From NCBI GenBank assembly GCA_964601615.1, contig CAZRNZ010000001.1, positions 7,658 to 71,657 of the forward strand: 64,000 nucleotides of DNA, written 5' to 3'. Both the position numbers and the translations under genes were made by a program. Under the pieces are notes generated by a model. The model saw nothing but the letters and a program-made list of their open reading frames with translations, searched no databases and was not told the origin of the DNA. This document shows, in pieces, positions 32,599 to 48,055 of this stretch; position 1 is the stretch's first letter; each line of letters begins with the position of its first letter. This stretch comes from an uncultured Candidatus Saccharibacteria bacterium. Lineage in GTDB: Bacteria > Patescibacteriota > Minisyncoccia > Phycocordibacterales > UBA918.

Positions 32599-32646
32599 AA
32601 AATGGCCGGAAAGGAGCTTCGCTCCTTTCCGGCCATATTTTTTATT
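32599..32646. terminator. Bidirectional terminator.
   Basis: aatggccggaaaggagc-ttcg-ctcctttccggccat followed by atttttt. Confidence 0.65.
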
Positions 32647-34324: not shown

Positions 34325-34426
34325 TGGCTATAAGTTTACCACAAGGGCAAAATATTGATTTTTACTTAAAAATGTGCTATAATTAAAGAGGTGATAGTAC
34401 CTTAATAAATATGAAGGAGATAACCC

Positions 34427-35329
34427 GTGAGCGGGATTACTCAAAAAAATACTGCTGCGACCGCCGGTCAAATCAGGATGCTTGGACAAGTGGCCACTGC
34501 CGCTGTTCTCAAATCACTTGAAGAGACTAGCCTCAACAATATTGATGCCCAGCGCATTATTGAACATGGCGATAAATTCTCGATTGGTATTCGTGAGTCT
34601 GTCACTCGCCTGCTTCAGGGGTTGTCGGCTTCCGACACTTTCCAGAATGAGGAGGTACTTTCGGACGAAGGATACTATTCTGGCTATGAGCCTAAGAGTA
34701 TTGCCGAACAAATGAAGATTCTGCGCGGTCTTTTCCCAAAAATTGGTAACGCCGACGAAAGTCTCGCTGAAGGTAAGCTTCCTTTGGGTGCAGAAGGATG
34801 GTTTGCGATTCCGCGGTGGCAAGATTTTGCTGCCACGTATGCTGAAGCAGTCGAAATTGCGCTTGCAAAGATTGAAGAGGTGTATGGTGACAATTTCTAT
34901 AACTGTCACAAAGGTCGGCTTGGTCTCTACAGTCTTCGTCAGTCTGTAGAAACAGCCGATATGTTAGAAAGGATCGGACAAGAGCAAGAATTTTATGATG
35001 TTCTCGTAATTCCTGCCCAGTTTGGTCTCAGACATCGTGGTCGTTCTATTCGTCGCTCTGTTGAGGTTTTTGCTGATGATGAGTTTGGACTTGGTGTCTT
35101 TGCTATATGCATCATGATTCTGACTCATCCAGAACGGATTATGCACCACAGTGACTTGTGGATCGACTGCTTTGGTGACGAATATGATGATCCGAATTCT
35201 GGTGTTCGCATTGACTATTCCATATTCTTCGGTTTCATTAGAGACAGAGTCGAGTGTGATATGGGTTGGTCCGGCTATGTCGACCGTGGATGCGGGTTAG
35301 CTTCTGGGTTCTTTGTTTCTGTTGAATAA
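34427..35329 (+). CDS. Hypothetical protein (300 aa).
   Basis: ORF with its own terminator. No motif recognised. Confidence 0.45.
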   Translation: MSGITQKNTAATAGQIRMLGQVATAAVLKSLEETSLNNIDAQRIIEHGDKFSIGIRESVTRLLQGLSASDTFQNEEVLSDEGYYSGYEPKSIAEQMKILRGLFPKIGNADESLAEGKLPLGAEGWFAIPRWQDFAATYAEAVEIALAKIEEVYGDNFYNCHKGRLGLYSLRQSVETADMLERIGQEQEFYDVLVIPAQFGLRHRGRSIRRSVEVFADDEFGLGVFAICIMILTHPERIMHHSDLWIDCFGDEYDDPNSGVRIDYSIFFGFIRDRVECDMGWSGYVDRGCGLASGFFVSVE

Positions 35330-35352
35330 GATTTAAAACTATAAGACCATCC

Positions 35353-35385
35353 TTCTGGATGGTCTTTTCTTTTTGTGTAGATAAG
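35353..35385 (+). terminator. Rho-independent terminator.
   Basis: aagaccatcc-ttct-ggatggtctt followed by ttctttttg. Confidence 0.6.
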
Positions 35386-35426
35386 TATCACTTAGCACTT
35401 AGTAGTTGATATATAATTGATTAATA

Positions 35427-37172
35427 ATGAGTTCTAAAATACTTTCCAAAGGAAAAGATGAGGAGATTTTTAGAGAGCCACTTGGTCATATATTGGTCGA
35501 AAAACTACTTCGTGAGGCAGGTTTTGAAGGAGATGTTTTAAGTAGTGCTGATGTTCTCGATAAATATTCCAGAGACGAAAGTATTTTTTCTATCAAACCA
35601 CAAATTGTTCTCCAACCTGTAAACGTCAAAGATGTCTGTGTTGCTGTTTCTGTTTTGGGAAAAGAAAAAGAAAAGTTCCCTTCCCTTTCCTTAACTCCAC
35701 GTGCCGCTGGTACAGGACTTGGTGGTGGTTCACTCACTGATTCAATTGTGCTTGATGTAAATACACACATGAATCGTATTTTGCGTGTTGGCCGTCAGGC
35801 TGGCAAAGTTACCTTTACTTGTGAATCTGGTACTTGGTGGCGCGATGTCGAAAAGGAATTAAAAACCTACGATAGTTATTTGCCGCCCTTCCCTGCTTCT
35901 AAACAGATTTGTTCTATTGGTGGTTCTGTTGCTAACAATGCAGCTGGTCCAGATTCTCTTCGCTTTGGTCATGTAGCAGATTGGGTGGAGTCGCTAGAGG
36001 TTGTTTTGCATGACGGAAAAGCTTATGAGGTACGTCCGATAAGCTACAAAGAATATAAAAATATCATCACTAAAAAAGACGCTTTAGCTAAAATAACTAA
36101 AGAAGTTTTTGAACTAATCAAAAAGAATGAATCTTTAATTAAGAAGTCTCGACCTAAGACAGCCAAGAATACTGCGGGTTATTCTTTGTGGGACGCATTA
36201 GATGTTTCAGTTGATGATTTCATGGCTGGCAAAGGCAAGTTTGATTTGACCAGAATTTTTTCTGGCAGTCAGGGCACGATTGGTATTATTACAAAAGTCA
36301 CTATGCGAGCTGAACCAATTGCTCACGATGTAGAACTCGTAGCGGTGCCAGTATTTGACCTAGCTTCAGCAGGCAGAGTTGTATTGGAATCAGTAAAATT
36401 TGATCCAATCAACGTAGAGGTTTTTGATGCCCTTACATACAAAGCAGCAATGGCTAATCCTGGTTTTTTCCGAGCTAGAATAACTGGTCTGCCATATTTA
36501 GGAATGCTTTGGTCCATGTACACAACCTACTTTTTCCGCTGGAAAAGAAAGTTGCCAGAATTTGTTCTCTTGGTGACCTTAGATAAAAAAAGTCTGAAAA
36601 AATCTGGTAAAGAAACTAAAGACTTACTTATCGAACTTAGAAAAGTTGGTGGTGAGACAGCCATGTTGGTAGAGAATAAAAATGACAAGCAGATGTTTTG
36701 GCAGGTACGCGATGCCAGTTTTTTGCTTTCCAAATTACTTGACCCCAAGAAACGACCTGCAGCTTTTCTGGAAGACATGACTGTTCCGTCAGAACATATT
36801 GCTAAGTTTTTTTCTGATATTAAATATCTTTTGAATAAATATAATGTGCAGGCGGCAGTGCATGGACATGGTGGCAATGCTCATTTCCACTTCTATCCCC
36901 TACTTGATTTCACCAACAAGCAAACTCCAGATTTGATAATGAAAATGTCTGATGAGTTTTTCCATACCGCAGTAAAGTACGGTGGCAGTATTTGTGGTGA
37001 ACACAATGACGGAATTATTCGCACTCCGTATTTAGATTTAATGTTTTCTAAAAAGACCTTAGATTTATTTGAAAAACTAGAAAGTATTTTTGATCCTAAA
37101 GACATCTTCAATCCTGGTAAAAAGGTAAATCCAAGATTTGATATAAAGACTTCAATTAGAAAGATTAATTAA
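35427..37172 (+). CDS. FAD-linked oxidase (FAD_binding_4 family, GlcD/D-lactate dehydrogenase-like).
   Basis: FAD-binding 'PRAAGTGLGGGS' motif and a C-terminal FAD-oxidase_C-like region. Confidence 0.7.
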   Translation: MSSKILSKGKDEEIFREPLGHILVEKLLREAGFEGDVLSSADVLDKYSRDESIFSIKPQIVLQPVNVKDVCVAVSVLGKEKEKFPSLSLTPRAAGTGLGGGSLTDSIVLDVNTHMNRILRVGRQAGKVTFTCESGTWWRDVEKELKTYDSYLPPFPASKQICSIGGSVANNAAGPDSLRFGHVADWVESLEVVLHDGKAYEVRPISYKEYKNIITKKDALAKITKEVFELIKKNESLIKKSRPKTAKNTAGYSLWDALDVSVDDFMAGKGKFDLTRIFSGSQGTIGIITKVTMRAEPIAHDVELVAVPVFDLASAGRVVLESVKFDPINVEVFDALTYKAAMANPGFFRARITGLPYLGMLWSMYTTYFFRWKRKLPEFVLLVTLDKKSLKKSGKETKDLLIELRKVGGETAMLVENKNDKQMFWQVRDASFLLSKLLDPKKRPAAFLEDMTVPSEHIAKFFSDIKYLLNKYNVQAAVHGHGGNAHFHFYPLLDFTNKQTPDLIMKMSDEFFHTAVKYGGSICGEHNDGIIRTPYLDLMFSKKTLDLFEKLESIFDPKDIFNPGKKVNPRFDIKTSIRKIN

Positions 37173-37180
37173 AGTAAATA

Positions 37181-37214
37181 ATAAGCTGATTAAATCTAAT
37201 CAGCTTATTTATAA
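37181..37214. terminator. Hairpin terminator at the left flank of the island.
   Basis: ataagctgatta-aatc-taatcagcttat followed by ttat. Confidence 0.55.
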
Positions 37215-37528: not shown

Positions 37529-39847
37529 TCAGTCCCTTTTAAATAATTCATTTATTTCCTCCCTGCTTCCTTCAATTATGTCCCTGTGGCTATCTTCATC
37601 AGCAAAATCTTTTGCAGATTCTTCCATCATCTCTAAAGCTCTATCAGCATGGTTATCACTCATTCTGTCTACGATTGTGGCTACATTGAAAGATGTCATG
37701 TCTAATACATACCTGCGTTCGGAATCTATAAAATTTTCGTTGATCGCTTGTTCAATTTCAGAATTGATGGAATATGTGTCAACTTCGTAGTCATCTGGAG
37801 CTATAAAATCAACATATTTAGTGTAATCAATATCTAAATGATCTTCTATATTATAAAGAATATGATCTTCATATAGCAGAGCAAGATGCTCTGCTATATG
37901 TTTATCTTGTATCTGTCTATCATAAAAGTATCTAAATAAATGCTCAAAGTCGAGATTGTCTATATTACTATTTAGATAAGCCCATAAAAAGTCAAATTTT
38001 TCTGGCACAAATTCTGTTTCAAAAAAAGATAATATGTAATAAAGCTTGTAGAAATCAATTAAGTTTAAGCTCTGTGACTCTTCTTTTTCCAGTGTGGTCA
38101 GACTAGATAAAACTTCAATTATTTTTTCACTGGCAAGATTATTTTCATCGCAGTGTATTAAACATACAAGCCAATTCCAATCTTTCTTAGCAAGTTTACT
38201 TTTATATAACGATTCAAATAAATTTTTCTGTAAATATTTAAATTCTAAATCAGTAATATAGTCATTTCTTTTTAAAGATTCTAAATATTGGATGGATTCA
38301 ATATTTGACAAGGCAAACAATAATTTATTTATCTCAGACTCGTTATTTTTAAAATAATTCTCAACTATATAGTCTCCAAGAGATGGATTAAAAAGAATGT
38401 ATTGAAATTCGTTTTTATCAAAAACTTTACTCCTACTTAGAAGTGAATCTAAAGCTACTTTAATAACGTAACTAAAGGAAGCTTCGTTATCAGAAGAAAA
38501 CTTATTGTAGTTACAAAAAATATCAAAAGAATTTCTTAGGTGTGATTCACTTATTTTTCCGTTATTAAATGCGACTAATAAAACCAGGGTTTTTGTACAC
38601 CTGTCTAACTTTTCGAAATAGTCCTCCCAAATATCACTCGGGTTATCAAGTTTTTCTTCTATGTAGGTAAAATAATCATTACTTTTTATTTCAGAAAACT
38701 CGACCCTCTCTTTTTCTAAAATGTATTCGATTATTCTTGGATTGAAATTACTATGATTAATAATCTTCCAATACTTTTTTTCAAGGTAAATTTGATCAAC
38801 ATAGTCAGGGTCTAATTCAGAAAAATACATATGTTTATACAATATGCGTGCTTTGTCTATCGGTCTTAGGTTTTCGATTTGTAGTACATATTCACTACCT
38901 TTAATATTTCCCTTCTCTAGGGAAGGGAATATTCCTCGTGCCTTATTTATGATGGTGGTGCGAGAATTTAATATAAATTTAAGTTTCTTGGATCGCGCTA
39001 CTCTGTCCATAAATAACATAATTTGGGAAGAATCATCTCCTTTGGAAATATCCATAAAATTTTCACCAAGAAAGTCATCAAAATAAAAAACTATGTTACA
39101 TTCTTGATTTGCTGACACAATATCTTCAGCTTCTTTGATGTTCCTGATTGAATAGAAAGAATATCCATTCTTTACATATGTAAATGCAAGCATATTTGAT
39201 AGTGTTGTCTTTCCAATGCCTGCTTCTCCAGTGATTACTACAACATTCTTTTCATCCAAACGTTTTCCAGCTTTATCAAAATCTTCAGTGTAAACAAATC
39301 GAACAGAATTTTTCTTTATATTCTCAAGTAGAAAATCACTTTGTCCTTGCAGTCCGCCAGTAAGCGCATTTGCAATTGTCTGCCCTAAAATCTTTTTCAG
39401 AAGAATCTCTGAATATATGTATAGCTGTGTATATTTTTTAACAATGTCAAAATTCTCTTCTTTTGAGAGAAAACTCTGTATATCATCGAACCCCCAAATA
39501 TCTTCCACGCCTTTAATGAAGCCGTTCATAATAGATAGCATCTCAGCTTTTTTTAGTGGAGTGACTTTACCAGAAGTCATAAAGATATACCTTTCAGGGT
39601 TCAGGGCTTTGACTTTGTTCGTTTCTAATTTTAATGCAGATATAATACGAACAGATGTCGCGTCAGGATAATGCTTCGCCTGTATTATTACACTTTGATT
39701 TTCACCCACCCAAAATCTTCCATCGATACCGCTGTCTTTTCCAACGGTAAAACGTTCAACTCGTTTACCATTCTCTTTCTCAATGATGTCAGCACACAAG
39801 TTTTCAAATTCTCTTGAATCAAGTCTTTTAAGATCGTATTCGGTCAT
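37529..39847 (-). CDS. Mrr-type PD-(D/E)xK nuclease domain fused to a NACHT-like STAND P-loop NTPase, with a C-terminal alpha-helical region (Avs/bNACHT-like antiviral protein).
   Basis: N-terminal 'GKDSGIDGRF...VIIQAKHY' Mrr_cat-like motifs. Walker A 'ITGEAGIGKTT'. Walker B 'IVFYFDDFLGE'. NACHT 'TSR'-like 'ILNSRTT'. Long helical C-terminus. Confidence 0.65.
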   Translation of the reverse strand: MTEYDLKRLDSREFENLCADIIEKENGKRVERFTVGKDSGIDGRFWVGENQSVIIQAKHYPDATSVRIISALKLETNKVKALNPERYIFMTSGKVTPLKKAEMLSIMNGFIKGVEDIWGFDDIQSFLSKEENFDIVKKYTQLYIYSEILLKKILGQTIANALTGGLQGQSDFLLENIKKNSVRFVYTEDFDKAGKRLDEKNVVVITGEAGIGKTTLSNMLAFTYVKNGYSFYSIRNIKEAEDIVSANQECNIVFYFDDFLGENFMDISKGDDSSQIMLFMDRVARSKKLKFILNSRTTIINKARGIFPSLEKGNIKGSEYVLQIENLRPIDKARILYKHMYFSELDPDYVDQIYLEKKYWKIINHSNFNPRIIEYILEKERVEFSEIKSNDYFTYIEEKLDNPSDIWEDYFEKLDRCTKTLVLLVAFNNGKISESHLRNSFDIFCNYNKFSSDNEASFSYVIKVALDSLLSRSKVFDKNEFQYILFNPSLGDYIVENYFKNNESEINKLLFALSNIESIQYLESLKRNDYITDLEFKYLQKNLFESLYKSKLAKKDWNWLVCLIHCDENNLASEKIIEVLSSLTTLEKEESQSLNLIDFYKLYYILSFFETEFVPEKFDFLWAYLNSNIDNLDFEHLFRYFYDRQIQDKHIAEHLALLYEDHILYNIEDHLDIDYTKYVDFIAPDDYEVDTYSINSEIEQAINENFIDSERRYVLDMTSFNVATIVDRMSDNHADRALEMMEESAKDFADEDSHRDIIEGSREEINELFKRD

Positions 39848-39878
39848 ATGTAATATGTTTTACAATTTGCCAATTTTA

Positions 39879-42092
39879 TTATGGCAATAATCCACAAACA
39901 TCAGTATATAATTTTTTTAACTCATCAATGCTCATATCAAGTATTGGTTCATACATAAAAGAATTGAGATGAATGTTCTCTGGAGTCATAATATTTACTC
40001 TTTCTAGAATAATAAGGGCATTTTTCAGACTATCATCTCTCACAGAATCATCTTTATATCTTTCAAATAATTCTCGCGTTTGGTTAACTGAAATTCGACT
40101 TCTATCCGTAATTTTAGCCAACATGTACTCCTCAGCTTTCTGTCGTATTGCTATAGCAAGAATAATTTTATTTTCCAGATTAAACTCCTCATCTCGTATC
40201 GTAGATGCTACTGTCAATAAATGCTGATAGACAATATCTGTATCAGCAATAGTTGCATCAAAGTCATCCCTGTCTATATGCTCTTTAAAGATAAGTTTCA
40301 AATCAGAAAATGTAATATTGCCTGTGTTTGTTTTAGAGTGTAGTAAACATGTTAAAGTGCTGAAATCATCACCGTGAGCAGTTGAGCTGAGAGATCTTCT
40401 GCTGTATTCGATTAGATTTCTGACAAAAGGAATCAAGGCCAAAATATGCTTTTTTGCATCGTCAGCTGTGAAATCTTTATCTTTATACTGTCCACTTTTT
40501 AGACAGTTCATCCAAGTTATAAAGGGTGGATTTTGATACACTTCTTTGATGAGACTTATCCCGTCAAGAGTTTTAATTGCGTGTTTCTTACAATCTCTTG
40601 AAAGACCTAGTCTGCTAGTTATTGTCCTGTAGAAGTCAAAATTGTGAGTAAGGATTATTGAGTAGAAATTACTACCTTTATTGAGGTCATTTAGATATTC
40701 AACAATTGCATATTTGTTTTTATAATCAAACGAATCAGCAATGTCATCAATAATAAAAACAGTTTCTTGATTTTGTAATTGTCTCGATTTAATTTCAAAA
40801 ATAACATTAAGTAAGTAAAAAGCCCGTCTCTCTCCCTGACTTAGGATATTATCTACCATTGTCTTACGTTCGACCGGCTTCCCTTGGAATGAAAAATCAA
40901 TAGCAGGTGTTTGATTGTTTAAAACAGCATCTGCTTTATTATTGATTGCTATCTTAAAAGGTACATTTGCAAATCGGTTTTCAAACTCACCAATAGCTGC
41001 TTCCCATGCTGATTGACCATCTTTAGCCTTTTGGATTATTTCCTCTAAATCTTTTTCTTTGCTCTTGTATAAATCGACCAATACCTCAATACTGGGTGAG
41101 ATCTGTTTCAAGAACCCAAACCATACCTCTCTTTTAAAATCATCGTAATTTACTAACTTTGCAAGAATCTGTTGATTCTTCTTTTGAGTGATAACTTTTT
41201 TAAAGGCCCTTAATGTTTTTGTTTTATCTAGCTTTTTCTCAATTTCTTGAAATAACTCGCGTAATTTTTCATCATTAAATATCTTTTCAACCTCTTCATT
41301 TAAAATTATTGAAAAATCTTCAGACTTTTGAATTTCACCATGTTTTTTCAGTAATAATTTATGTCCCGTGTTGAAATACTCATCTCCCTCTAGGGATGAA
41401 TTTAAAGATTTTGCCTCAGTGGTACCAAAGATGTTTTGGGCATTTTTACCAAAAAACTCAGAATCACTCACGAGTTCCTCATATTTCTCTATGTAGTTTT
41501 GTAATAGCTGAAAGTTCTCACTCAAAAAATCCCGTACCTCATTTTTTGGATCAAACACATCGTTGTATTTAAAATCAAAAAATTCTTTTGCAGATTTAAT
41601 CTCTGGCAGAGTTGTCTCAAAAATCTCAAATATGTTTTTCTTTTTTAGATATGAAAAAGCATCATTGATTTCTGCCTCGTAGTTACCACTACCAGTTATT
41701 TTTTTAAGTCCTGATAGTGTAGCTTTTTTTTGGGAGTCAATTTCTTTGTATATTGTTAGATATTCTTTTCGGGTTTCTTCATCTGCTAGAAGTGTAAGAA
41801 CCTCTTCAGAATTAAATGCTTTGTCGTTATAGGGTTCAATGACACAAATATTTTCTGGCTGCACAGGTATTCCGTCTTCTCGAAACACATCAAAGGTAGG
41901 CATTAACGAGGTATCCATTTGGTCGCATGGTTTACTTTTTGACGAAATATCTTTGAATGTTTTGGCAAAGGAGGTCTTCATTACTCCGTTGGCTGCATAA
42001 ATAGCGATAGTTTTACATTTTGAAAAATCAAACTCACCTTCAAGCTTTTTTATACCGTAACAGTTTTCAAATTTAATGGCTAATTTATTCAT
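39879..42092 (-). CDS. PrrC/RloC/AAA_13-like ABC-type ATPase with a degenerate Walker A, a long coiled-coil insert, and an uncharacterised C-terminal domain.
   Basis: N-terminal 'IAIYAANGVMKTSFAKTF' resembles the AAA_13 'IYGRNGSGKST' P-loop, with the second Gly replaced. Walker B/D-loop 'VFIIDDIADSFD' lies about 410 aa downstream. The intervening region is Lys/Glu-rich and helical. Confidence 0.55.
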   Translation of the reverse strand: MNKLAIKFENCYGIKKLEGEFDFSKCKTIAIYAANGVMKTSFAKTFKDISSKSKPCDQMDTSLMPTFDVFREDGIPVQPENICVIEPYNDKAFNSEEVLTLLADEETRKEYLTIYKEIDSQKKATLSGLKKITGSGNYEAEINDAFSYLKKKNIFEIFETTLPEIKSAKEFFDFKYNDVFDPKNEVRDFLSENFQLLQNYIEKYEELVSDSEFFGKNAQNIFGTTEAKSLNSSLEGDEYFNTGHKLLLKKHGEIQKSEDFSIILNEEVEKIFNDEKLRELFQEIEKKLDKTKTLRAFKKVITQKKNQQILAKLVNYDDFKREVWFGFLKQISPSIEVLVDLYKSKEKDLEEIIQKAKDGQSAWEAAIGEFENRFANVPFKIAINNKADAVLNNQTPAIDFSFQGKPVERKTMVDNILSQGERRAFYLLNVIFEIKSRQLQNQETVFIIDDIADSFDYKNKYAIVEYLNDLNKGSNFYSIILTHNFDFYRTITSRLGLSRDCKKHAIKTLDGISLIKEVYQNPPFITWMNCLKSGQYKDKDFTADDAKKHILALIPFVRNLIEYSRRSLSSTAHGDDFSTLTCLLHSKTNTGNITFSDLKLIFKEHIDRDDFDATIADTDIVYQHLLTVASTIRDEEFNLENKIILAIAIRQKAEEYMLAKITDRSRISVNQTRELFERYKDDSVRDDSLKNALIILERVNIMTPENIHLNSFMYEPILDMSIDELKKLYTDVCGLLP

Positions 42093-42098
42093 ACATTC

Positions 42099-43190
42099 TT
42101 ACCGCAAAAATCTAATCTGCAAATTTAGTTTCATTCGCTGTTCGCGGTTTTCTTCATAGATTTTTCCAAACCTATGACGAATAGTACTTGGTGTATCTAG
42201 TTTTGTATTGTGAAAGAGATAGTCCTCAAATTTGTCGCGGTTATAAAGATGGTAACAGACAATATCACCGTCTTCTTTCACAACAATGTAACCACCGTGC
42301 GCTTCAGTGTATCCATCCCAATCTTTACTCGGCATCATTCCCAGGGCGATACTTGATAGAAAACTTTTTATGTTCATCACTAACATTTCTTTAGTGAAAT
42401 CAATCTGCTCCATAAAGGTAGTATCGTTGGCAATCTTATCCATCAAATCCTTGATGGTAGTTGCTTCTCCCATGTAGTAGTGTTTCAGCATCTGAGCGAC
42501 AATCTTGGGGAATATCGAATCAATTTTTCGAAGGTTACGCCTAAAAATGTCGTTATCCATTCCTATATACTCAAGCTTTGCGCCCACATCATAGGTTAAT
42601 TTTGCAGCATCTCTAACAGACAAGTTGTTGCTACTTTCCACGGGTTTATTATCTTCAGTAGCAATTCTATATAAAAAATTAGTTGCTCCAGATGCATTAA
42701 GGAGAGTTGCGGGCGAACCGAGCATTGATTTGATACTAAAACCTAGCTCTGGAAATTCAGGAGACTTCTTATCATGTAAAACAATTGTTAAGTCGGCCTT
42801 TTTGGCACTCGACGCACGCATTTGGGTACAATAGAGATCGTTCATTGATTCTGTCGCACTTGCAACCTCAAATGTTGTTCCTTCTGAGTTTTTAATCTGT
42901 TCAAAAACTTTAGCAACGCCACCCTTGATTTTTTCCAAATTTACCACACCTATCTCCTCATTTTCACTTGAAATAACAACCAGTCCATCGTTTTTGGAAA
43001 TGTCGTACTCCCTCTTTCCAACTGCCTCCTGACGAATAATTTTCAAAACAATATGAAAATTATCTTCAAGTATTTTTAGATTTTTATCTGCTGTAAAAAC
43101 TTTTCCATCAGTCAAGATTTTAATAAAGGCATAGAATTCAGACCATTCTCCTTTATTGCCTTTGAGAGTTGTAGTAATTTTATTTGTCAT
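42099..43190 (-). CDS. Type II restriction endonuclease, HpaII-like (predicted CCGG specificity).
   Basis: N-terminal 'KGNKGEWSEFYAFIKIL' recalls the RE_HpaII family. Size is about 360 aa. It overlaps by 11 nt the upstream M.HpaII-like methyltransferase gene. Confidence 0.5.
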   Translation of the reverse strand: MTNKITTTLKGNKGEWSEFYAFIKILTDGKVFTADKNLKILEDNFHIVLKIIRQEAVGKREYDISKNDGLVVISSENEEIGVVNLEKIKGGVAKVFEQIKNSEGTTFEVASATESMNDLYCTQMRASSAKKADLTIVLHDKKSPEFPELGFSIKSMLGSPATLLNASGATNFLYRIATEDNKPVESSNNLSVRDAAKLTYDVGAKLEYIGMDNDIFRRNLRKIDSIFPKIVAQMLKHYYMGEATTIKDLMDKIANDTTFMEQIDFTKEMLVMNIKSFLSSIALGMMPSKDWDGYTEAHGGYIVVKEDGDIVCYHLYNRDKFEDYLFHNTKLDTPSTIRHRFGKIYEENREQRMKLNLQIRFLR

Positions 43191-44847
43191 ATTTTTCTAG
43201 GGTTTCAATTATTCTTTCCGCAACTGCTTGAATTGCTGGGACAGCAACAGAGTTACCAAGCTGTTTCATCGATTGAACACTTGATACCTCTTCTGGAAAC
43301 TCAAACCATTTGGGGAATCCTTGCATCTTCAAGCCTTCTTTAGGTCCAATCTGCACAACTTTTCCGTCCACACGATACGCGTCCCAATTTCTGCGGTCAT
43401 TAATACTACTGCCACGACCCCCAACACGAAGGGTAAAACCAACATCTCTATCGCATTTACCGCCAAATATATCTGACATGGTGTACTTCAACTCTTTTAC
43501 TGGTTCTGGAAATTCAAAAGGAATTGTATTATCACGAAAACCAACCATAAACAAACGCGGCCGATGTTGTGGAACTCCAAAATCTGAAGCTTTTACAATT
43601 TTCGCGTGGAATGAATACCCAAGATCTTCTTCGATAATTCGTTTAATTGTTTCAAAAGTTTTTCCGCCATCGTGAGCATATAATCCACGTACATTTTCAA
43701 GAAAAAACGCTTTTGGCTGCTTTTCTTTCATTATGCGAACTACATCAAAAAACAACGTGCCGCGCGCTTCTGCAAAACCTTTTTTGAAACCTGCTTGTGA
43801 GAATGGCTGACAAGGAAATCCGCCTGTGATTATGTCAAAATCAGGCATTTCTTTTTCGTTGACCTTTGTTATATCTCCGACAAAATTACCACTTCTGAAC
43901 ACGTCGGGTGAAACTTTGTAAAAATTATGTCTATATGTACTTCGTGCTGGTTCATCCCACTCCGAAACAAAAACGCATTCAGCGCCGACATTATGAAATG
44001 CAACATGAAAACCACCGATACCTGCAAAAAGGTCGATGAATTTATGCTTTGTTTTTGTCAGTGGTTCTGGTGCTTTATCGTTGACTCCTAGAAAATACAT
44101 ATGACGTGAATCGACAAGAAGGCCAAATAGTGACCCTTGATTACCTTCAGCAACATAATCAGTCGCTTTCGGTTCCATTTTTTGTAATTCGGCAAGAATA
44201 CTATGTACACCTTGTTCAGCAATAATAAGAAAATCTATGACGTTTATACCGATAATCTTACCTGCTTCAATAATTCGGGCAGCAACCTGTTTGTCTTCGT
44301 TACTCGGTGAAGGGTCACCAGATGGGTGATTGTGAATAACAATGACACTAGCAGCATGTTTCTCAAGTCCAGGAGCAAATACTTCTCGCGGATGGATAAT
44401 ACTTTTGTCCAAAGTGCCGATAGATACAATTTCTTTATGTACTAAAACACTTCGAGCGTTGAGGTAAAGACAAACCAAGTGTTCCTTTTTTGCTGTTTTG
44501 AGTTCAGGAACCAATATCGCAGCATCAATGGCAGACAACACCATATGTTCCTCTTCGCCGTTATGTTTGTCATACATACGTCGCGCCAGGGCAAACATTG
44601 AAGCAATTTGCAATGCTTTGACATCTCCTATTCCAGAAATTTGTTTCAAATCTTCCACGGTTGCGTCCATTAGATTATTACCAAATTTTCTGGATATTTT
44701 TTGAGCAAGTAACTTGACGTTTGTGCCTTTGATACCACTTCCAAGTAAAATAGCGAGTAGTTCACTGTCGGTGAGAGCATCGCTACCTTTTCCAAGAAAT
44801 TTCTCGCGTGGTCTGTCGTATTTTGGTGTATCTTTGAGTTTAGCCAT
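43180..44847 (-). CDS. Fusion protein: an N-terminal RadC-like JAB/MPN domain joined to a C-terminal DNA (cytosine-5)-methyltransferase (M.HpaII/Dcm-like).
   Basis: Residues 1-250 carry the HhH 'LSDSELLAILLGSG' and JAB motif 'IVIHNHPSGDPSPSNED'. Residues ~270-555 carry motif I 'FIDLFAGIGGF', motif IV 'GGFPCQPFSQAG', motif VI 'FFLENVRGL', and 'GNSVAVPAIQA'. The reading frame is continuous across both parts. Confidence 0.8.
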   Translation of the reverse strand: MAKLKDTPKYDRPREKFLGKGSDALTDSELLAILLGSGIKGTNVKLLAQKISRKFGNNLMDATVEDLKQISGIGDVKALQIASMFALARRMYDKHNGEEEHMVLSAIDAAILVPELKTAKKEHLVCLYLNARSVLVHKEIVSIGTLDKSIIHPREVFAPGLEKHAASVIVIHNHPSGDPSPSNEDKQVAARIIEAGKIIGINVIDFLIIAEQGVHSILAELQKMEPKATDYVAEGNQGSLFGLLVDSRHMYFLGVNDKAPEPLTKTKHKFIDLFAGIGGFHVAFHNVGAECVFVSEWDEPARSTYRHNFYKVSPDVFRSGNFVGDITKVNEKEMPDFDIITGGFPCQPFSQAGFKKGFAEARGTLFFDVVRIMKEKQPKAFFLENVRGLYAHDGGKTFETIKRIIEEDLGYSFHAKIVKASDFGVPQHRPRLFMVGFRDNTIPFEFPEPVKELKYTMSDIFGGKCDRDVGFTLRVGGRGSSINDRRNWDAYRVDGKVVQIGPKEGLKMQGFPKWFEFPEEVSSVQSMKQLGNSVAVPAIQAVAERIIETLEKYDK

Positions 44848-44854
44848 ACATTGA

Positions 44855-45079
44855 TTACTTCAAAAGTTTGTCACTTGTGACTCCAAGCGCTATAGCAATG
44901 CGTTCGATGGTAGCAAGTGTCGGATTGCCTTTTCCAGCTTCAAGATTGCTAATGAAAGCTCTGTCGCACTTCAACGCTCTGCATATATCGCCTTGAGACA
45001 TACGCTTATCCTCTCGAACACGTTTCATATTTTTCGCTAGTCGTTTTGGTGCTTGTTGCATATCATTTCCACAGTGCAA
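44855..45079 (-). CDS. XRE-family HTH transcriptional regulator (controller-protein-like). The start is probably the ATG at 45061 rather than the TTG at 45079.
   Basis: HTH_3 motif 'RMSQGDICRALKCDRAFISNLEAGKGNPTLATIERIAIALGV'. It ends 7 nt before the methyltransferase gene. Confidence 0.7.
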   Translation of the reverse strand: MHCGNDMQQAPKRLAKNMKRVREDKRMSQGDICRALKCDRAFISNLEAGKGNPTLATIERIAIALGVTSDKLLK

Positions 45080-45081
45080 TC

Positions 45082-45093
45082 ATTATACAAGAA
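45082..45093 (-). promoter_or_regulatory. Extended -10 promoter (TGTATAAT) of the defence operon.
   Basis: The minus-strand sequence reads cttgTATAATgattgcactgtggaaATGatATG, about 20 nt upstream of the regulator's ATG. Confidence 0.4.
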
Positions 45094-45315
45094 TATTGTA
45101 TTGTGTGCTAATGATTTATAATACAACAGTGGTACAGAATTGGATATTTCTTTGGTTGTGGGGCGAGCGATAGCGAAGCACATCAAACCCCATGAGTATA
45201 CAGAAGTACAAAGCCACCACGCGCCTGGCGCGCCCTGCTTCGGTGCAGAATAGCGATTTATTTATGAGCCTTCTCGTGATAGAACCAAATGATTTCATTG
45301 CCTCGTAAGGTCATT

Positions 45316-45927
45316 TTAGTTGGTCGGACTGATTTGCTCCGACCCTTCTCCAGAGATATATTTTAGATCAGAAAACACATCCTCAAACCCTGTGGCTTTT
45401 AAAATTTGCTTCGCTTCAATTTTAGTATCTCTTTTATCATCTAGATCAACACTTACTCTACATGCTTCTATCATTCCAGATATGTAAGCATTATCTAATT
45501 TGTGTTGTTTAGCTCCCGCAACCATAAGTGCCAAATACCAATCGTATACTGGTAAGCCACTTATATATTTTTCAGTTGGAGCAATGTATGTCCTTACATT
45601 ATTCAGTACTTTACCCTCAAAAATTACCGTAAAATCTTCTTTTACGATGTAACCACCGTTACCCCTACCTTCAGCACTGTCTAGTTTTATTATTTCGTCA
45701 CCACTATCGTCAATTTCAAATAGAACTCCATAAACAATATCAGACTCGTTGCACGTTTTTAGTAAGGTCGCTTTGGCTGAATCATCTTTACTTTCTTTGA
45801 TAAGTATTACCTTATAGCCCATAACAATTGCTTTGCCGAGAGGTTCCGCACTTGTACACCGTTTTGGTGCCTTGAGCCGTTCTGTCAGCATGTTTGAACC
45901 GTATGCGAAGTATTTCATATAGGCCAT
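45316..45927 (-). CDS. Gamma-glutamyl cyclotransferase / AIG2-like (GGCT fold) protein.
   Basis: N-terminal 'YFAYGSNM' hallmark of the GGCT/AIG2 fold, plus a downstream acidic catalytic-region candidate. Confidence 0.55.
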   Translation of the reverse strand: MAYMKYFAYGSNMLTERLKAPKRCTSAEPLGKAIVMGYKVILIKESKDDSAKATLLKTCNESDIVYGVLFEIDDSGDEIIKLDSAEGRGNGGYIVKEDFTVIFEGKVLNNVRTYIAPTEKYISGLPVYDWYLALMVAGAKQHKLDNAYISGMIEACRVSVDLDDKRDTKIEAKQILKATGFEDVFSDLKYISGEGSEQISPTN

Positions 45928-45954
45928 TATCTCTCAAAAGTGACAAAAATGACA

Positions 45955-47010
45955 CTAATTTGCAACATCACCAAATAACGAGCCTTGGTTTTTGTTCTTC
46001 TCATCGAATTTCTTTTTTTCTTTTTTTAGTTCCAAATCCTTTTTGTGTTGAACTAAATTATCATTATGGGATGTGACTCTCTTTACATACAACCTTGGTT
46101 TGCCAAATTTACCATTTACATAGTCGTAGAAGCGACTAATGTCAAAAACTACACCTATATTGTCTCCACTAGTAAATGAGATTTCTTGATTCAAGATTTG
46201 ATTTTTATATTCATCATCTTGCATATAAAAAAATATATTTTCACCATCTTCGATAATGATTTGATTGTCTTCATCGAAGACATCAGAGCCATAATAGACA
46301 CCCTTCCACGGCACACCCCTGCCATATTGCTGTTGTTTTTCGATAAATGGTTGTGATAATTGTATATTTCCAGATAAATCAATCTTTAGAAACTCTTTTT
46401 CTTTCGGAATTTCTTCTATATAGTTCTTAAAATCATCTCTTTTTATTTCAGTTTGAAATATCCTTTGTTTTTCTTCAGATATTGTCGGTTTAATACTAAG
46501 AATATCTCTGTCTGCCATTACAGACTGATAAAAAATATTTTTCTGTTTTTTAGGATAATACGAATCGCATATCTCTTCTACCTTTTGTATCTGTTCATCG
46601 CTGAGATTAAAACTTTTACATTTTTCTACTATTCCTAAAGTATTAAGGTCTGATGTAGTGTCGTTCAGTCTTATCTGACTACTAAACAATAATGCTGCCA
46701 ACAAGGTAGTAACTGCCAAAGCTACACCCTGATTATCATTTAAAAATTTAACTACTGTATGCTCTTTAAAAGAACCTTCTTCTGGAGGTAACGTTAAAAT
46801 CTCAAAATGCTCGTCTGGACACAATGTCTTTATCAAATACGATATGATCTCCACTTGTGCCAAGGCACAAGTGTTTCTGACGTGAAAATTTATTGCATGA
46901 ACATCATCACTGGTGAAGTTATAGTGTAGTTCAAGGGTTATTTCTTTTTTAGTCAAATCCGTTCCCATTTTTAACTTTTTGTATTGATATGAATCATTTC
47001 GTTTCTGCAC
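45955..47010 (-). CDS. Hypothetical soluble protein (351 aa). Start is uncertain: GTG at 47010, or ATG at 46968.
   Basis: No recognisable motifs. It is AT-rich and overlaps or abuts the upstream membrane-protein gene. Confidence 0.45.
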   Translation of the reverse strand: MQKRNDSYQYKKLKMGTDLTKKEITLELHYNFTSDDVHAINFHVRNTCALAQVEIISYLIKTLCPDEHFEILTLPPEEGSFKEHTVVKFLNDNQGVALAVTTLLAALLFSSQIRLNDTTSDLNTLGIVEKCKSFNLSDEQIQKVEEICDSYYPKKQKNIFYQSVMADRDILSIKPTISEEKQRIFQTEIKRDDFKNYIEEIPKEKEFLKIDLSGNIQLSQPFIEKQQQYGRGVPWKGVYYGSDVFDEDNQIIIEDGENIFFYMQDDEYKNQILNQEISFTSGDNIGVVFDISRFYDYVNGKFGKPRLYVKRVTSHNDNLVQHKKDLELKKEKKKFDEKNKNQGSLFGDVAN

Positions 47011-47443
47011 TAGAAATCATAAATAACCAATTCATCACTATTATTAACAAACTGACCGCTGGCAAATACGCAAAGCCACCTAATAAGAATGGGTATAAGT
47101 ACGCGCTTATGCTACCAATCCACTGATTATTCTCATCCGTAGCCAGGGCAAGAAAGAACACAACATAGGTGAAGCAGATAATTGTGGACACCAATATCCA
47201 GGTTAAATAATCTAACTGTCGACTAGATAATTTGTATTTTTGCCACTCAAAAACCAAATAGTTGGTAACGGCAAAAAATATAATCATGCCGGACTGCAAA
47301 ATAATCCCACTAGTCTCCTTAGGCTCAGTTCCAGCAAAACTAAATATTGCTTCAATTACTACTGGGAAAAACACAGCCAGCATTACCACTAATTGTATTT
47401 TCTTTTCGACGCTCTTTATCTTTTCCTTGACTGTTAATTCCAT
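46994..47443 (-). CDS. Small four-TM membrane protein (149 aa).
   Basis: Four hydrophobic helices (LVVMLAVFFPVVIEAIF, IIFFAVTNYLVF, ILVSTIICFTYVVFFLAL, LLGGFAYLPAVSLLIIVMNWLF). Confidence 0.5.
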   Translation of the reverse strand: MELTVKEKIKSVEKKIQLVVMLAVFFPVVIEAIFSFAGTEPKETSGIILQSGMIIFFAVTNYLVFEWQKYKLSSRQLDYLTWILVSTIICFTYVVFFLALATDENNQWIGSISAYLYPFLLGGFAYLPAVSLLIIVMNWLFMISSAETK

Positions 47444-47980: not shown

Positions 47981-48055
47981 TGGTGACCCCACGGGAAATC
48001 GAATCCCGATTTCTGCCGTGAGAGGGCAGCGTCCTAACCGTTAGACGATGGGGCC
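47981..48055 (-). tRNA. tRNA-Glu (anticodon CUC), with an encoded CCA end.
   Basis: The minus-strand sequence GGCCCCATCGTCTAACGGTTAGGACGCTGCCCTCTCACGGCAGAAATCGGGATTCGATTTCCCGTGGGGTCACCA folds into a cloverleaf (7-bp acceptor stem, anticodon loop CUCUCAC, T-loop TTCGATT). Confidence 0.8.

What the first reader, a model, noticed from the sequence alone, without database searches (positions are those of the whole stretch)
37529..45079. Five-gene defence operon: controller-like HTH, RadC::C5-MTase, HpaII-like REase, PrrC/RloC-like ABC ATPase, Mrr-NACHT STAND
What the sequence shows. Five minus-strand genes are packed tightly: a 7-nt gap between the HTH and the methyltransferase (MTase); an 11-nt overlap between the MTase and the restriction endonuclease (REase); a 6-nt gap between the REase and the ATPase; and a 31-nt gap between the ATPase and the STAND gene. 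An extended -10 element (TGTATAAT) sits upstream of the HTH gene. I saw no internal terminator. The first strong terminator lies at 37181-37214, so the five genes look like one transcript.

Established knowledge. E. coli PrrC, the founding AAA_13-type ABC-ATPase anticodon nuclease, is encoded inside the Type I R-M locus EcoprrI and is kept latent by it. Avs/bNACHT proteins pair a STAND NTPase with Mrr-like PD-(D/E)xK effectors.

Inference. This looks like a layered system. A Type II CCGG R-M pair forms the first line of defence. A degenerate-P-loop PrrC/RloC-like ATPase and a nuclease-STAND protein are co-transcribed as backup or retaliation effectors. This looks like PrrC's arrangement with a Type I system. 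I do not know this exact five-gene combination, and in particular the RadC-fused MTase, as a described system. A reduced genome carries roughly 7.5 kb of such genes, which is also striking.
Basis: partly seen in the sequence, partly recalled or inferred. Interest (0 to 1): 0.85.

Follow-up and report, generated by a model that had tools for sequence, protein, structure and literature searches.

The report
Mosaic restriction-modification defence island
The five tightly packed genes are real, but they are three independently mobile anti-phage modules joined end to end (a CCGG restriction-modification cassette, an uncharacterised ATPase that habitually rides behind restriction systems, and a stand-alone nuclease-STAND sensor), not one dedicated five-gene machine.

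Summary
The five minus-strand genes, their spacing (7, -11, 6 and 31 nt) and most domain calls are confirmed. Comparative data show three modules with sharp DNA-homology breakpoints at the intergenic junctions.

1. HTH controller, RadC::C5-MTase and HpaII REase. This cassette recurs at 90% identity or more in many metagenomes without the other two genes.

2. A 737-aa SMC/Rad50-like ABC ATPase. PADLOC lists it as PDC-S46, an untested "guilt-by-embedding" candidate. It has a family-wide deviant P-loop (NGxMKTS) and a conserved all-alpha C-terminal domain. All six nearest relatives with known context (65-100% identity) lie immediately 3' of restriction-modification (R-M) genes of four kinds. About a quarter of 79 distant relatives are embedded in type I, II or III R-M loci. 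The genomic analogy to PrrC therefore holds. Membership of AAA_13/PrrC is not met, and the HEPN-like fold is only tentative.

3. An Mrr-nSTAND3 protein (not NACHT; PADLOC PDC-S73). It is normally solitary, although it follows this ATPase in at least three independent lineages.

A PDC-S42-like gene and tRNA-Glu lie upstream, so this is a defence island of about 10.7 kb, probably in a Patescibacteria genome. Interest is moderate: the components are catalogued but uncharacterised, and the combination is not a conserved system.

The parts
45082..45126 (-). Promoter/operator region of the controller gene. It holds the conserved box TTGTATTATAA (45126-45116), a -35-like TTAGCA (45111-45106) and a -10 TATAAT (45087-45082).
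   Evidence: This is the best promoter-like hit of the region and can be read directly in the sequence. The box TTGTATTATA is also present upstream of the homologous HTH genes in L149/L150 and L083, where the flanking DNA is otherwise diverged. Its role as an operator is inferred.
44855..45061 (-). Controller (C) protein, Cro/CI-type HTH, about 68 aa starting at ATG 45061. The mechanical ORF starts at TTG 45079.
   Evidence: Pfam HTH_3 6.8e-11. PADLOC Control_protein 1.6e-12. Homologous HTH genes head the same cassette in L149/L150 and head type III and EcoRI-MTase cassettes in L083 and L157.
43180..44847 (-). Fusion protein: a full-length RadC (HhH + JAB, aa 1-245) joined to a C5 cytosine DNA methyltransferase (aa 258-555). 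It is the modification subunit of the R-M cassette.
   Evidence: Pfam UPF0758_N 8.6e-22, RadC 5.2e-35, DNA_methylase 4.2e-78. NCBIfam RadC equivalog 209.5 bits, above its 180-bit cut-off, and dcm 2.5e-80. The motifs HNHPSGDPSPS, GGFPCQPFS and FLENVRGL are readable in the translation. The 90%-identity cluster has 84 members.
42099..43190 (-). HpaII-family type II restriction endonuclease (CCGG specificity inferred). It overlaps the MTase gene by 11 nt.
   Evidence: Pfam RE_HpaII 1.4e-106, profile positions 1-359 of 359. PADLOC REase_II 4.9e-91.
39879..42092 (-). R-M-linked ABC ATPase (PADLOC PDC-S46 family). It has an SMC/Rad50-like head with a helical insert (aa 1-515) and a conserved all-alpha C-terminal domain (aa 515-737, nt 40550-39879).
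37529..39847 (-). Mrr-like PD-(D/E)xK nuclease (aa 1-165), nSTAND3 NTPase (aa 184-342) and a C-terminal helical region that is presumably a sensor. This is the PADLOC PDC-S73 family.
   Evidence: Pfam Mrr_cat 5.7e-10 and nSTAND3 3.3e-43. PADLOC PDC-S73 6.2e-184. Walker A GEAGIGKTT and Walker B FYFDDF are conserved, as are E15, D38, D42, Q56 and K58.
37180..37209 (-). Hairpin between the island and the convergent FAD-oxidase gene; a candidate bidirectional terminator.
   Evidence: The terminator scan finds a 13-bp stem; sequence.
45316..47443 (-). Upstream part of the same island: a GGACT/AIG2-like gene (45316-45927), a PDC-S42-like gene (45955-47010) and an overlapping 149-aa gene (46994-47443).
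   Evidence: Pfam AIG2_2 2.1e-7 and GGACT 8.9e-6. PADLOC PDC-S42 7.9e-24.
47981..48055 (-). tRNA-Glu(CTC), the upstream border of the island.
   Evidence: ARAGORN and Rfam tRNA at 59 bits. No tRNA-derived direct repeat was found.

Best explanation
Window 37.2-48.0 kb is a defence island, and the five genes are three separable modules placed head to tail. They are probably read from the controller's promoter.

Module 1 is a controller-regulated type II R-M system. An HpaII-family endonuclease cuts unmethylated CCGG. A C5-methyltransferase protects host DNA and carries a complete RadC at its N-terminus.

Module 2 is a member of a large family of SMC/Rad50-like ABC ATPases (PADLOC PDC-S46). The family has a conserved non-canonical P-loop and an invariant-motif helical C-terminal domain. 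It travels as the 3' passenger of R-M operons of types I, II and III. I infer that it is a self-contained second-line (abortive-infection type) sensor-effector that profits from, and perhaps monitors, the neighbouring R-M, as PrrC and RloC do. Its C-terminal domain would be the effector, possibly a HEPN-like RNase.

Module 3 is an autonomous STAND sensor. It would oligomerise on recognising a phage cue and release its N-terminal Mrr-like DNase.

Shown: gene content, domain identities, module boundaries and the R-M linkage of the ATPase family. Inferred: CCGG specificity, co-transcription, every activity of the ATPase, and the trigger and target of the STAND protein.
For: Domains.

Module boundaries from DNA homology:
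- C-M-R: 45003-42105, against L149 and L146.
- ATPase: 42093-39887, against L083.
- ATPase + STAND: 42097-37529, against L082.
- STAND: 39905-37584, against L141.

The C-M-R cassette occurs alone in L146-151.

All six nearest ATPase relatives with known context follow R-M genes:
- HpaII (the window itself).
- EcoRI_methylase + GmrSD/HNH, with or without DUF2130.
- Type III Mod-Res.
- HsdM.

Among 79 species-level relatives:
- The order hsdM-[RhuM]-ATPase-hsdS-hsdR is seen in 10 loci, with further type I, II and III contexts.
- About 19 of 42 close same-strand upstream neighbours are R-M genes.
- HsdS is the commonest downstream neighbour, at 9 of 39.

ATPase structure and motifs:
- ABC head fold.
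- hhalign of the N-lobe against a PrrC profile gives E = 8.7e-5.
- Conserved motifs.

The STAND protein is solitary in L144, L145 and L086 and in 54 metagenome loci.

PDCs were defined by embedding in R-M, BREX and DISARM systems. ABC-HEPN proteins in R-M operons are an established theme (PMC3710099).
Against: No experiment exists for PDC-S46 or PDC-S73; they are listed as untested candidates.

The effector nature of the ATPase C-terminal domain is not established:
- Foldseek finds nothing significant.
- hhalign against the PrrC nuclease domain is non-significant.
- No Rx4-6H motif is present.

The Met in place of the last Walker A glycine may mean that the protein does not hydrolyse ATP.

Many family members are not next to R-M, including those on plasmids. 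Linkage could therefore reflect shared mobility rather than function.

The STAND gene follows this ATPase in at least three independent lineages, twice without any R-M. This hints at a functional ATPase-STAND pairing that my model treats as optional.
Confidence: 0.6

Rival explanations
1. One reading: the five genes form one co-evolved, obligately cooperating layered system, with the R-M as first line and the ATPase plus Mrr-STAND as dedicated retaliation effectors wired to it.
For: Spacing is tight and no convincing internal terminator is present. The same order, R-M then ATPase then STAND, recurs in L082 with a different R-M. L141 keeps a 27-nt remnant of the ATPase gene upstream of its STAND gene.
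Against: Outside the window's own genome (L001) no other locus has all five genes. The RadC::MTase-HpaII cassette is found at 90% identity or more without either downstream gene. L021 has the same cassette (MTase 90%, REase 77%) followed by an ATPase that is only 41% identical. The STAND protein is solitary nearly everywhere. GC content drops from 0.37-0.40 in the R-M part to 0.29-0.33 in the ATPase and STAND genes.
Confidence: 0.1
2. The ATPase and the STAND protein form a two-gene unit. The ABC ATPase acts as sensor or regulator and the Mrr-STAND protein as nuclease effector, and the R-M is only a neighbour.
For: Direct same-strand adjacency is seen in the window, L082, L141 (as a remnant), L032 and L080. 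The STAND proteins of the window clade, L032 and L080 are only 25-29% identical to one another, so the pairing arose at least three times. In L032 and L080 no R-M lies upstream. The ATPase lacks a proven effector domain of its own.
Against: Only 2 of 79 distant ATPase loci carry a STAND gene. None of 54 STAND loci carries the ATPase. The closest ATPase relatives, at 83-86% identity, have no STAND gene. STAND proteins with nuclease heads are self-sufficient in the known Avs systems (my own knowledge of the field).
Confidence: 0.15
3. The ATPase is not a defence effector but an accessory or selfish passenger of mobile R-M cassettes. For example, it could be a DNA-binding SMC-like factor that helps the cassette establish, stabilise or move.
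For: It has a deviant P-loop and no demonstrable nuclease motif. It is found in conjugative-plasmid transfer and leading regions. Its module boundaries are sharp, as expected of a mobile cassette.
Against: It co-occurs with RhuM, DUF2130 and PrrC homologues, which are typical R-M-embedded defence genes. The C-terminal motifs are invariant in 82 of 82 sequences, which suggests catalysis or specific binding. The family was selected as a defence candidate after mobility genes had been filtered out.
Confidence: 0.15

Closest known systems
PrrC / EcoprrI and RloC (ABC ATPase-HEPN anticodon nucleases; Pfam AAA_13)
   Same: It has an N-terminal Rad50/SMC-type ABC head followed by a helical C-terminal domain. 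The gene is embedded in or appended to R-M operons, often alongside RhuM (PMC3710099). In L003, L012 and L013 it sits in the same type I locus as a genuine PrrC homologue.
   Different: It is about twice the size of PrrC, with a roughly 375-aa helical insert. There is no AAA_13 hit. Walker A is NGxMKTS rather than GxGKT. The C-terminal domain shows no significant sequence match to the PrrC nuclease domain and has no Rx4-6H motif. It is linked to type II and III R-M as well as type I, whereas PrrC is almost exclusively found in type I. It also occurs alone.
PADLOC phage defence candidates PDC-S46, PDC-S73 and PDC-S42 (Payne et al. 2024, bioRxiv 10.1101/2024.01.29.577857)
   Same: Full-length HMM matches: 9e-228 for PDC-S46, 6e-184 for PDC-S73 and 8e-24 for PDC-S42. 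The family context found here agrees with how these candidates were defined, namely by embedding in type I R-M, BREX or DISARM systems.
   Different: These are names for untested candidates, not characterised systems. The paper's text and the supplements held give no description of these three.
HpaII-type C-regulated type II R-M systems
   Same: A full-length RE_HpaII endonuclease, an overlapping C5-MTase gene and an upstream Cro/CI-type controller.
   Different: The MTase carries an N-terminal full-length RadC. The controller precedes the MTase, not the REase.
Avs/AVAST and other nuclease-STAND antiviral sensors
   Same: Tripartite layout: an N-terminal nuclease effector (Mrr-like PD-(D/E)xK), a central STAND NTPase and a C-terminal helical region. 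It acts as a single-gene unit.
   Different: The NTPase belongs to the nSTAND3 clade, not NACHT. No Avs model in PADLOC matched. The trigger is unknown.

Membership tests
Type II R-M, HpaII family | Endonuclease with a full-length RE_HpaII domain | tested here: met
   PF09561 1.4e-106, profile positions 1-359 of 359.
Type II R-M, HpaII family | Adjacent cognate C5-MTase with catalytic motifs | tested here: met
   PF00145 4.2e-78 and TIGR00675 2.5e-80. The PCQ and ENV motifs are readable in the translation. The two genes overlap by 11 nt.
Type II R-M, HpaII family | CCGG methylation and cleavage | not testable with these tools
   The only indirect evidence is a CCGG observed/expected ratio of 0.71 in the window, which is not striking.
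C-protein controlled R-M | Small HTH controller with operator boxes at its own promoter | tested here: inconclusive
   The HTH matches PADLOC Control_protein at 1.6e-12. A conserved TTGTATTATA box lies upstream in three divergent cassettes. No binding data exist.
PrrC/RloC (Pfam AAA_13 ABC-HEPN anticodon nucleases) | Match to the AAA_13 profile | tested here: not met
   No hit at E <= 0.01. Only 1 of 25 family members matches AAA_13, whereas 24 of 25 match SMC_N weakly.
PrrC/RloC (Pfam AAA_13 ABC-HEPN anticodon nucleases) | Rad50/SMC-like ABC ATPase head | tested here: met
   Foldseek hits to SMC, Rad50 and PtuA at E of 2e-6 to 1e-4. The signature motif, Walker B and H-loop are conserved. hhalign against a PrrC profile gives E = 8.7e-5 for the N-lobe.
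PrrC/RloC (Pfam AAA_13 ABC-HEPN anticodon nucleases) | C-terminal HEPN RNase domain with an Rx4-6H motif | tested here: not met
PrrC/RloC (Pfam AAA_13 ABC-HEPN anticodon nucleases) | Embedding in an R-M operon | tested here: met
PrrC/RloC (Pfam AAA_13 ABC-HEPN anticodon nucleases) | tRNA anticodon-loop cleavage, latent until the R-M is inhibited | not testable with these tools
   Needs biochemistry or phage assays.
PADLOC PDC-S46 / PDC-S73 | Full-length match to the family HMM | tested here: met
   756.5 bits over positions 1-717 of 719, and 611.8 bits over positions 1-751 of 752.
NACHT-type STAND (bNACHT/Avs) | NACHT NTPase domain above the Pfam threshold, or an Avs HMM match | tested here: not met
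   NACHT scores 16.4 bits against a 26.7-bit cut-off, covering the P-loop only. nSTAND3 scores 147.5 bits. No Avs model appears among the PADLOC hits.
Mrr-like PD-(D/E)xK nucleases | Mrr_cat domain with conserved catalytic residues | tested here: met
   PF04471 5.7e-10. E15, D38, D42, Q56 and K58 are invariant in 22 homologues.
RadC (UPF0758, HhH + JAB) | Full-length match above the equivalog cut-off, with an intact JAMM motif | tested here: met
   NF000642 scores 209.5 bits against a 180-bit cut-off. The motif HNHPSGDPSPSNED is readable in the translation.
A conserved five-gene system | Synteny of all five genes in other genomes | tested here: not met
   All five genes occur together only on the window's own contig (L001). 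Every other locus carries a subset.

The most novel reading that the evidence does not exclude
PDC-S46 would be a general 'restriction-system guardian'. This means an ABC ATPase with a non-hydrolysing or atypical P-loop and a new RNase- or HEPN-like effector domain that docks onto R-M enzymes of any type (I, II or III). It would trigger abortive infection when a phage anti-restriction factor disables them. That extends the PrrC principle, so far known only for one type I system, to type II and III R-M. Where present, the Mrr-STAND nuclease would act as a further partner.
Probability: 0.25. Interest if true: 0.7.

Novelty: new variant of a known kind. Interest (0 to 1): 0.42.

Why it matters
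The PrrC-EcoprrI pair is the textbook case of one defence system guarding another, but it is a single type I example. This locus and its relatives show a large, uncharacterised ABC-ATPase family with more than 6,700 homologues. It is inserted with cassette-like precision behind type I, II and III R-M operons.

If the family does sense R-M failure, it would make 'guarded' restriction a general, testable principle. A compact type II model (HpaII + ATPase) would be far easier to reconstitute than a type I complex.

The RadC::C5-MTase fusion also gives a rare functional handle on RadC, whose biochemical role is still disputed. Finally, the locus shows a small-genome (probably Patescibacteria) organism devoting about 10 kb to stacked defences.

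Tried and rejected
- A sequence search of the PDB with the ATPase family profile returned 0 hits.
- hhalign of the whole ATPase family, and of its C-terminal part, against PrrC profiles aligned only the ABC head weakly. It found nothing for the nuclease domain. My by-eye alignment of R558-x3-E562...H585 with the PrrC R-x3-E...H triad therefore remains a lead, not a result.
- Foldseek of the C-terminal model against the PDB was non-significant. The AFDB library was unavailable.
- I looked for a tRNA-derived direct repeat or an integrase that would delimit the island. No tRNA-derived direct repeat was found and no integrase was identified (only part of the island's ORFs were profile-scanned).
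- I searched the Payne et al. text and supplements for descriptions of PDC-S46, S73 and S42. None is held.
- Exact-sequence look-ups did not name the organism. The only pointer is synteny of PIF1 and FAD oxidase with a Paceibacteria MAG.
- CCGG avoidance as a proxy for R-M activity was weak: observed/expected 0.71, while GATC is lower at 0.50.
- The 42-nt repeat shared by the STAND gene and the PDC-S42-like gene corresponds only to a short peptide similarity (E = 0.009 for the single comparison). I did not take it further.
Full report
OBSERVATION

The ORF list shows five minus-strand ORFs at exactly the stated coordinates:
- HTH, 44855-45079.
- RadC::MTase, 43180-44847.
- HpaII-like REase, 42099-43190.
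- ATPase, 39879-42092.
- STAND, 37529-39847.

The spacings are +7, -11, +6 and +31 nt.

Pfam confirms HTH_3 (6.8e-11), UPF0758_N + RadC (5.2e-35) + DNA_methylase (4.2e-78), RE_HpaII (1.4e-106, full length), and Mrr_cat (5.7e-10) + nSTAND3 (3.3e-43). NCBIfam places the N-terminal half of the MTase protein above the RadC equivalog cut-off (209.5 against 180 bits).

NACHT scores only 16.4 bits, below its cut-off, so the STAND core is nSTAND3. The ATPase has no Pfam hit at E <= 0.01, and AAA_13 is absent.

The string TGTATAAT exists at 45089-45082, but the TG abuts the hexamer, so it is a consensus -10 and not a canonical extended -10. It belongs to the best promoter-like site of the region, TTAGCA-18-TATAAT at 45111-45082. 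Promoter-like hits as a whole are not enriched over shuffles.

The -10 ends 3 nt before the TTG, so the controller protein most likely starts at ATG 45061 (MQQAPKRL...). This matches the N-termini of its homologues. A box, TTGTATTATA (45126-45117), is conserved upstream of three otherwise diverged controller genes and is a candidate operator.

Only weak 5-bp terminator-like hits lie inside the block. A 13-bp hairpin at 37209-37180 lies between the block and the convergent FAD-oxidase gene. Co-transcription is plausible but not shown.

THE LOCUS IS A MOSAIC OF THREE MODULES

PADLOC recognises the ATPase as PDC-S46 (9.1e-228, full length) and the STAND protein as PDC-S73 (6.2e-184). A gene just upstream (45955-47010) matches PDC-S42 (7.9e-24). 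tRNA-Glu lies at 47981-48055. The block is therefore part of an island of about 10.7 kb between tRNA-Glu and the FAD-oxidase gene.

GC content falls from 0.37-0.40 over the R-M genes to 0.29-0.33 over the ATPase and STAND genes.

DNA comparison with related loci gives sharp homology breakpoints:
- The C-M-R cassette matches L149 and L146 over 45003/44866-42105, ending at the REase stop codon.
- The ATPase matches L083 over 42093-39887.
- ATPase + STAND match L082 over 42097-37529, ending at the STAND stop codon.
- STAND alone matches L141 over 39905-37584.

MODULE 1: THE R-M CASSETTE

The RadC::MTase belongs to a 90%-identity cluster of 84 members.

In L146-148 and L149-151 the same cassette, [HTH]-RadC::MTase-HpaII, is followed by unrelated genes. 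In L149 it is flanked by a serine recombinase and an integrase.

In L021 (Saccharibacteria) the cassette (MTase 90%, REase 77%) is followed by an ATPase of the same family that is only 41% identical. In L074 an HpaII system without RadC is followed by another one, 38% identical.

RadC::C5-MTase fusions occur in at least five further 50%-identity clusters, with similarity ending before the target-recognition region. The RadC literature I could read lists fusions to HhH, ArdC, primase and DinG, but not to an MTase.

CCGG specificity is inferred from the REase family. CCGG is only mildly depleted in the window (observed/expected 0.71).

MODULE 2: THE ATPASE

The family is large, with more than 6,783 hits. 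The closest named relatives are in Patescibacteria.

An AlphaFold model (pLDDT 83) matches SMC, Rad50, RecF and retron/Septu PtuA heads (Foldseek E of 2e-6 to 1e-4).

Across 82 sequences (35-86% identity) these motifs are essentially invariant:
- YA(P)NGxMKTS.
- LSxGE.
- hhhDDIADSFDY.
- THN.

GENOMIC CONTEXT OF THE ATPASE

I fetched 80 species-level loci and analysed neighbours in 79 of them.

The ATPase sits in the order hsdM-[RhuM]-ATPase-hsdS-[PrrC homologue]-hsdR in ten loci, and next to other type I, II or III components in about a dozen more.
- Of 42 close same-strand upstream neighbours, about 19 are R-M genes: HsdM, RhuM within type I loci, HpaII, DpnII, N6_N4 and C5 MTases, ResIII and HsdS.
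- HsdS is the commonest downstream neighbour, at 9 of 39.
- L026 adds an NgoPII system.

All six nearest relatives with recoverable context are the 3' gene of an R-M operon:

| ATPase | Identity | Upstream operon |
|---|---|---|
| window | 100% | HTH - RadC::C5-MTase - HpaII |
| P0002 | 86% | EcoRI_methylase - GmrSD_N/HNH - DUF2130 |
| P0004 | 84% | HTH - EcoRI_methylase - GmrSD_N/HNH - DUF2130 |
| P0006 | 83% | HTH - N6_N4 MTase - ResIII |
| P0007 | 75% | EcoRI_methylase - GmrSD_N/HNH (a STAND gene follows the ATPase) |
| P0008 | 65% | HsdM |

The family also occurs alone, for example on conjugative plasmids, where it is annotated 'hypothetical protein'. It also occurs next to the FAD-oxidase orthologue of a Paceibacteria MAG.

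This matches how PDCs were defined. They are 145 untested candidates found by 'guilt-by-embedding' in type I R-M, BREX and DISARM systems (Payne et al. 2024). It also matches the older observation that ABC-HEPN proteins such as PrrC and RloC are often in R-M operons with RhuM (PMC3710099).

Membership of the PrrC/AAA_13 family is not.

MODULE 3: THE STAND PROTEIN

The search returned 831 homologues. Nearly all of the 120 best listed carry nSTAND3, most of them with Mrr_cat as well. Walker A, Walker B and the Mrr catalytic residues are conserved.

Homologues stand alone in several settings:
- Among housekeeping genes (L144, L145).
- In a prophage-like context (L086).
- In all 54 metagenome loci retrieved, none of which carries the ATPase.

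Even so, the STAND gene lies directly downstream of this ATPase in five loci:
- The window.
- L082.
- L141, where an IS has replaced the ATPase and left its last 27 nt.
- L032 and L080, where no R-M lies upstream.

The STAND proteins of the window clade, L032 and L080 are only 25-29% identical to one another, and the corresponding ATPases are 36-52% identical. The pairing therefore arose at least three times. This is more than I would expect by chance. It does not distinguish functional pairing from defence-island clustering.

MECHANISM

Shown:
- Domain content.
- Modularity.
- R-M linkage of the ATPase family.

Inferred:
- The controller sets the timing of MTase and REase expression.
- The REase cuts unmethylated CCGG.
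- The ATPase is a self-contained second-line sensor-effector. It benefits from, and may monitor, the adjacent R-M by the PrrC/RloC principle.
- The STAND protein is an autonomous sensor that unleashes its Mrr-like DNase on oligomerisation.

The role of RadC on the MTase is unknown.

VERDICT

The finding is a genuine defence island made of catalogued but uncharacterised parts, not a new five-gene system.

The most valuable lead is the PDC-S46 family as a possible general R-M-associated guardian. The RadC::MTase fusion is second.

Novelty: a new variant of a known kind (an R-M-embedded ABC-ATPase defence gene). Interest is moderate.

Noticed in passing
window 45316-47443 (-): Three more minus-strand genes lie between the controller gene and tRNA-Glu: a GGACT/AIG2-like gene (gamma-glutamyl cyclotransferase fold), a PDC-S42-like gene, and a 149-aa gene that overlaps it by 17 nt. 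They extend the defence island to about 10.7 kb.
   Followed up: partly
window 37870-37900: A perfect 14+14-nt inverted repeat with a 3-nt loop lies inside the STAND coding region. On the + strand it is followed by a T-rich tract, so it could stop antisense read-through from the convergent FAD-oxidase gene. It is not conserved in the 67-69% identical homologues L082 and L141.
   Followed up: partly
window 38653-38694 and 46410-46451: A 42-nt direct repeat (81% identity) is shared by the STAND gene and the PDC-S42-like gene. It encodes a short common peptide (EIK.xD(Y)FxxYIEE). BLASTP gives E = 0.009 for the single comparison. It remains unexplained.
   Followed up: partly
L003, L012, L013 (Patescibacteria/Saccharibacteria MAGs): A single type I R-M locus carries three embedded passengers: RhuM (in L012 and L013), the PDC-S46 ATPase between hsdM and hsdS, and a genuine PrrC homologue (AAA_13; relatives named 'anticodon nuclease') between hsdS and hsdR. 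A stand-alone radC lies upstream of hsdM in all three loci, directly adjacent in L012 and L013.
   Followed up: partly
L146:11918-14513 (also L147): In other genomes the same RadC::MTase-HpaII cassette is followed by two co-directional genes with no Pfam match (474 and 394 aa). They may be another R-M-linked candidate pair.
   Followed up: no
L141:491-1389: An rve-family transposase sits where the ATPase gene would be, upstream of a 69%-identical STAND gene. Only the last 27 nt of the ATPase ORF remain. This looks like IS-mediated loss of one module.
   Followed up: yes
L154-L157, L006, L009, L016, L017, L056: DUF2130 proteins repeatedly lie next to the PDC-S46 ATPase inside R-M operons. DUF2130 may be another R-M-linked passenger family.
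   Followed up: no
L008:4157-10727 compared with window 32642-37172: A Paceibacteria MAG has PIF1-like helicase (59%) and FAD-oxidase (58%) orthologues adjacent to a solitary PDC-S46 homologue. This suggests the same chromosomal hotspot, and that the window comes from a Patescibacteria genome.
   Followed up: partly
whole window: GATC is the most depleted 4-bp palindrome (observed/expected 0.50), more so than CCGG (0.71). This hints at another GATC-specific R-M system or a Dam-related constraint elsewhere in the genome.
   Followed up: no
window 37529-39847, aa 3-163: The Mrr-like N-terminal domain of the STAND protein also matches the PADLOC models 'Aga_TIR-PNTD1-PNTD2' and 'Aga_REase-TIR-PNTD1-PNTD2' (3.6e-33 and 1.4e-24). 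The same effector head therefore seems to be shared with another class of defence proteins.
   Followed up: no
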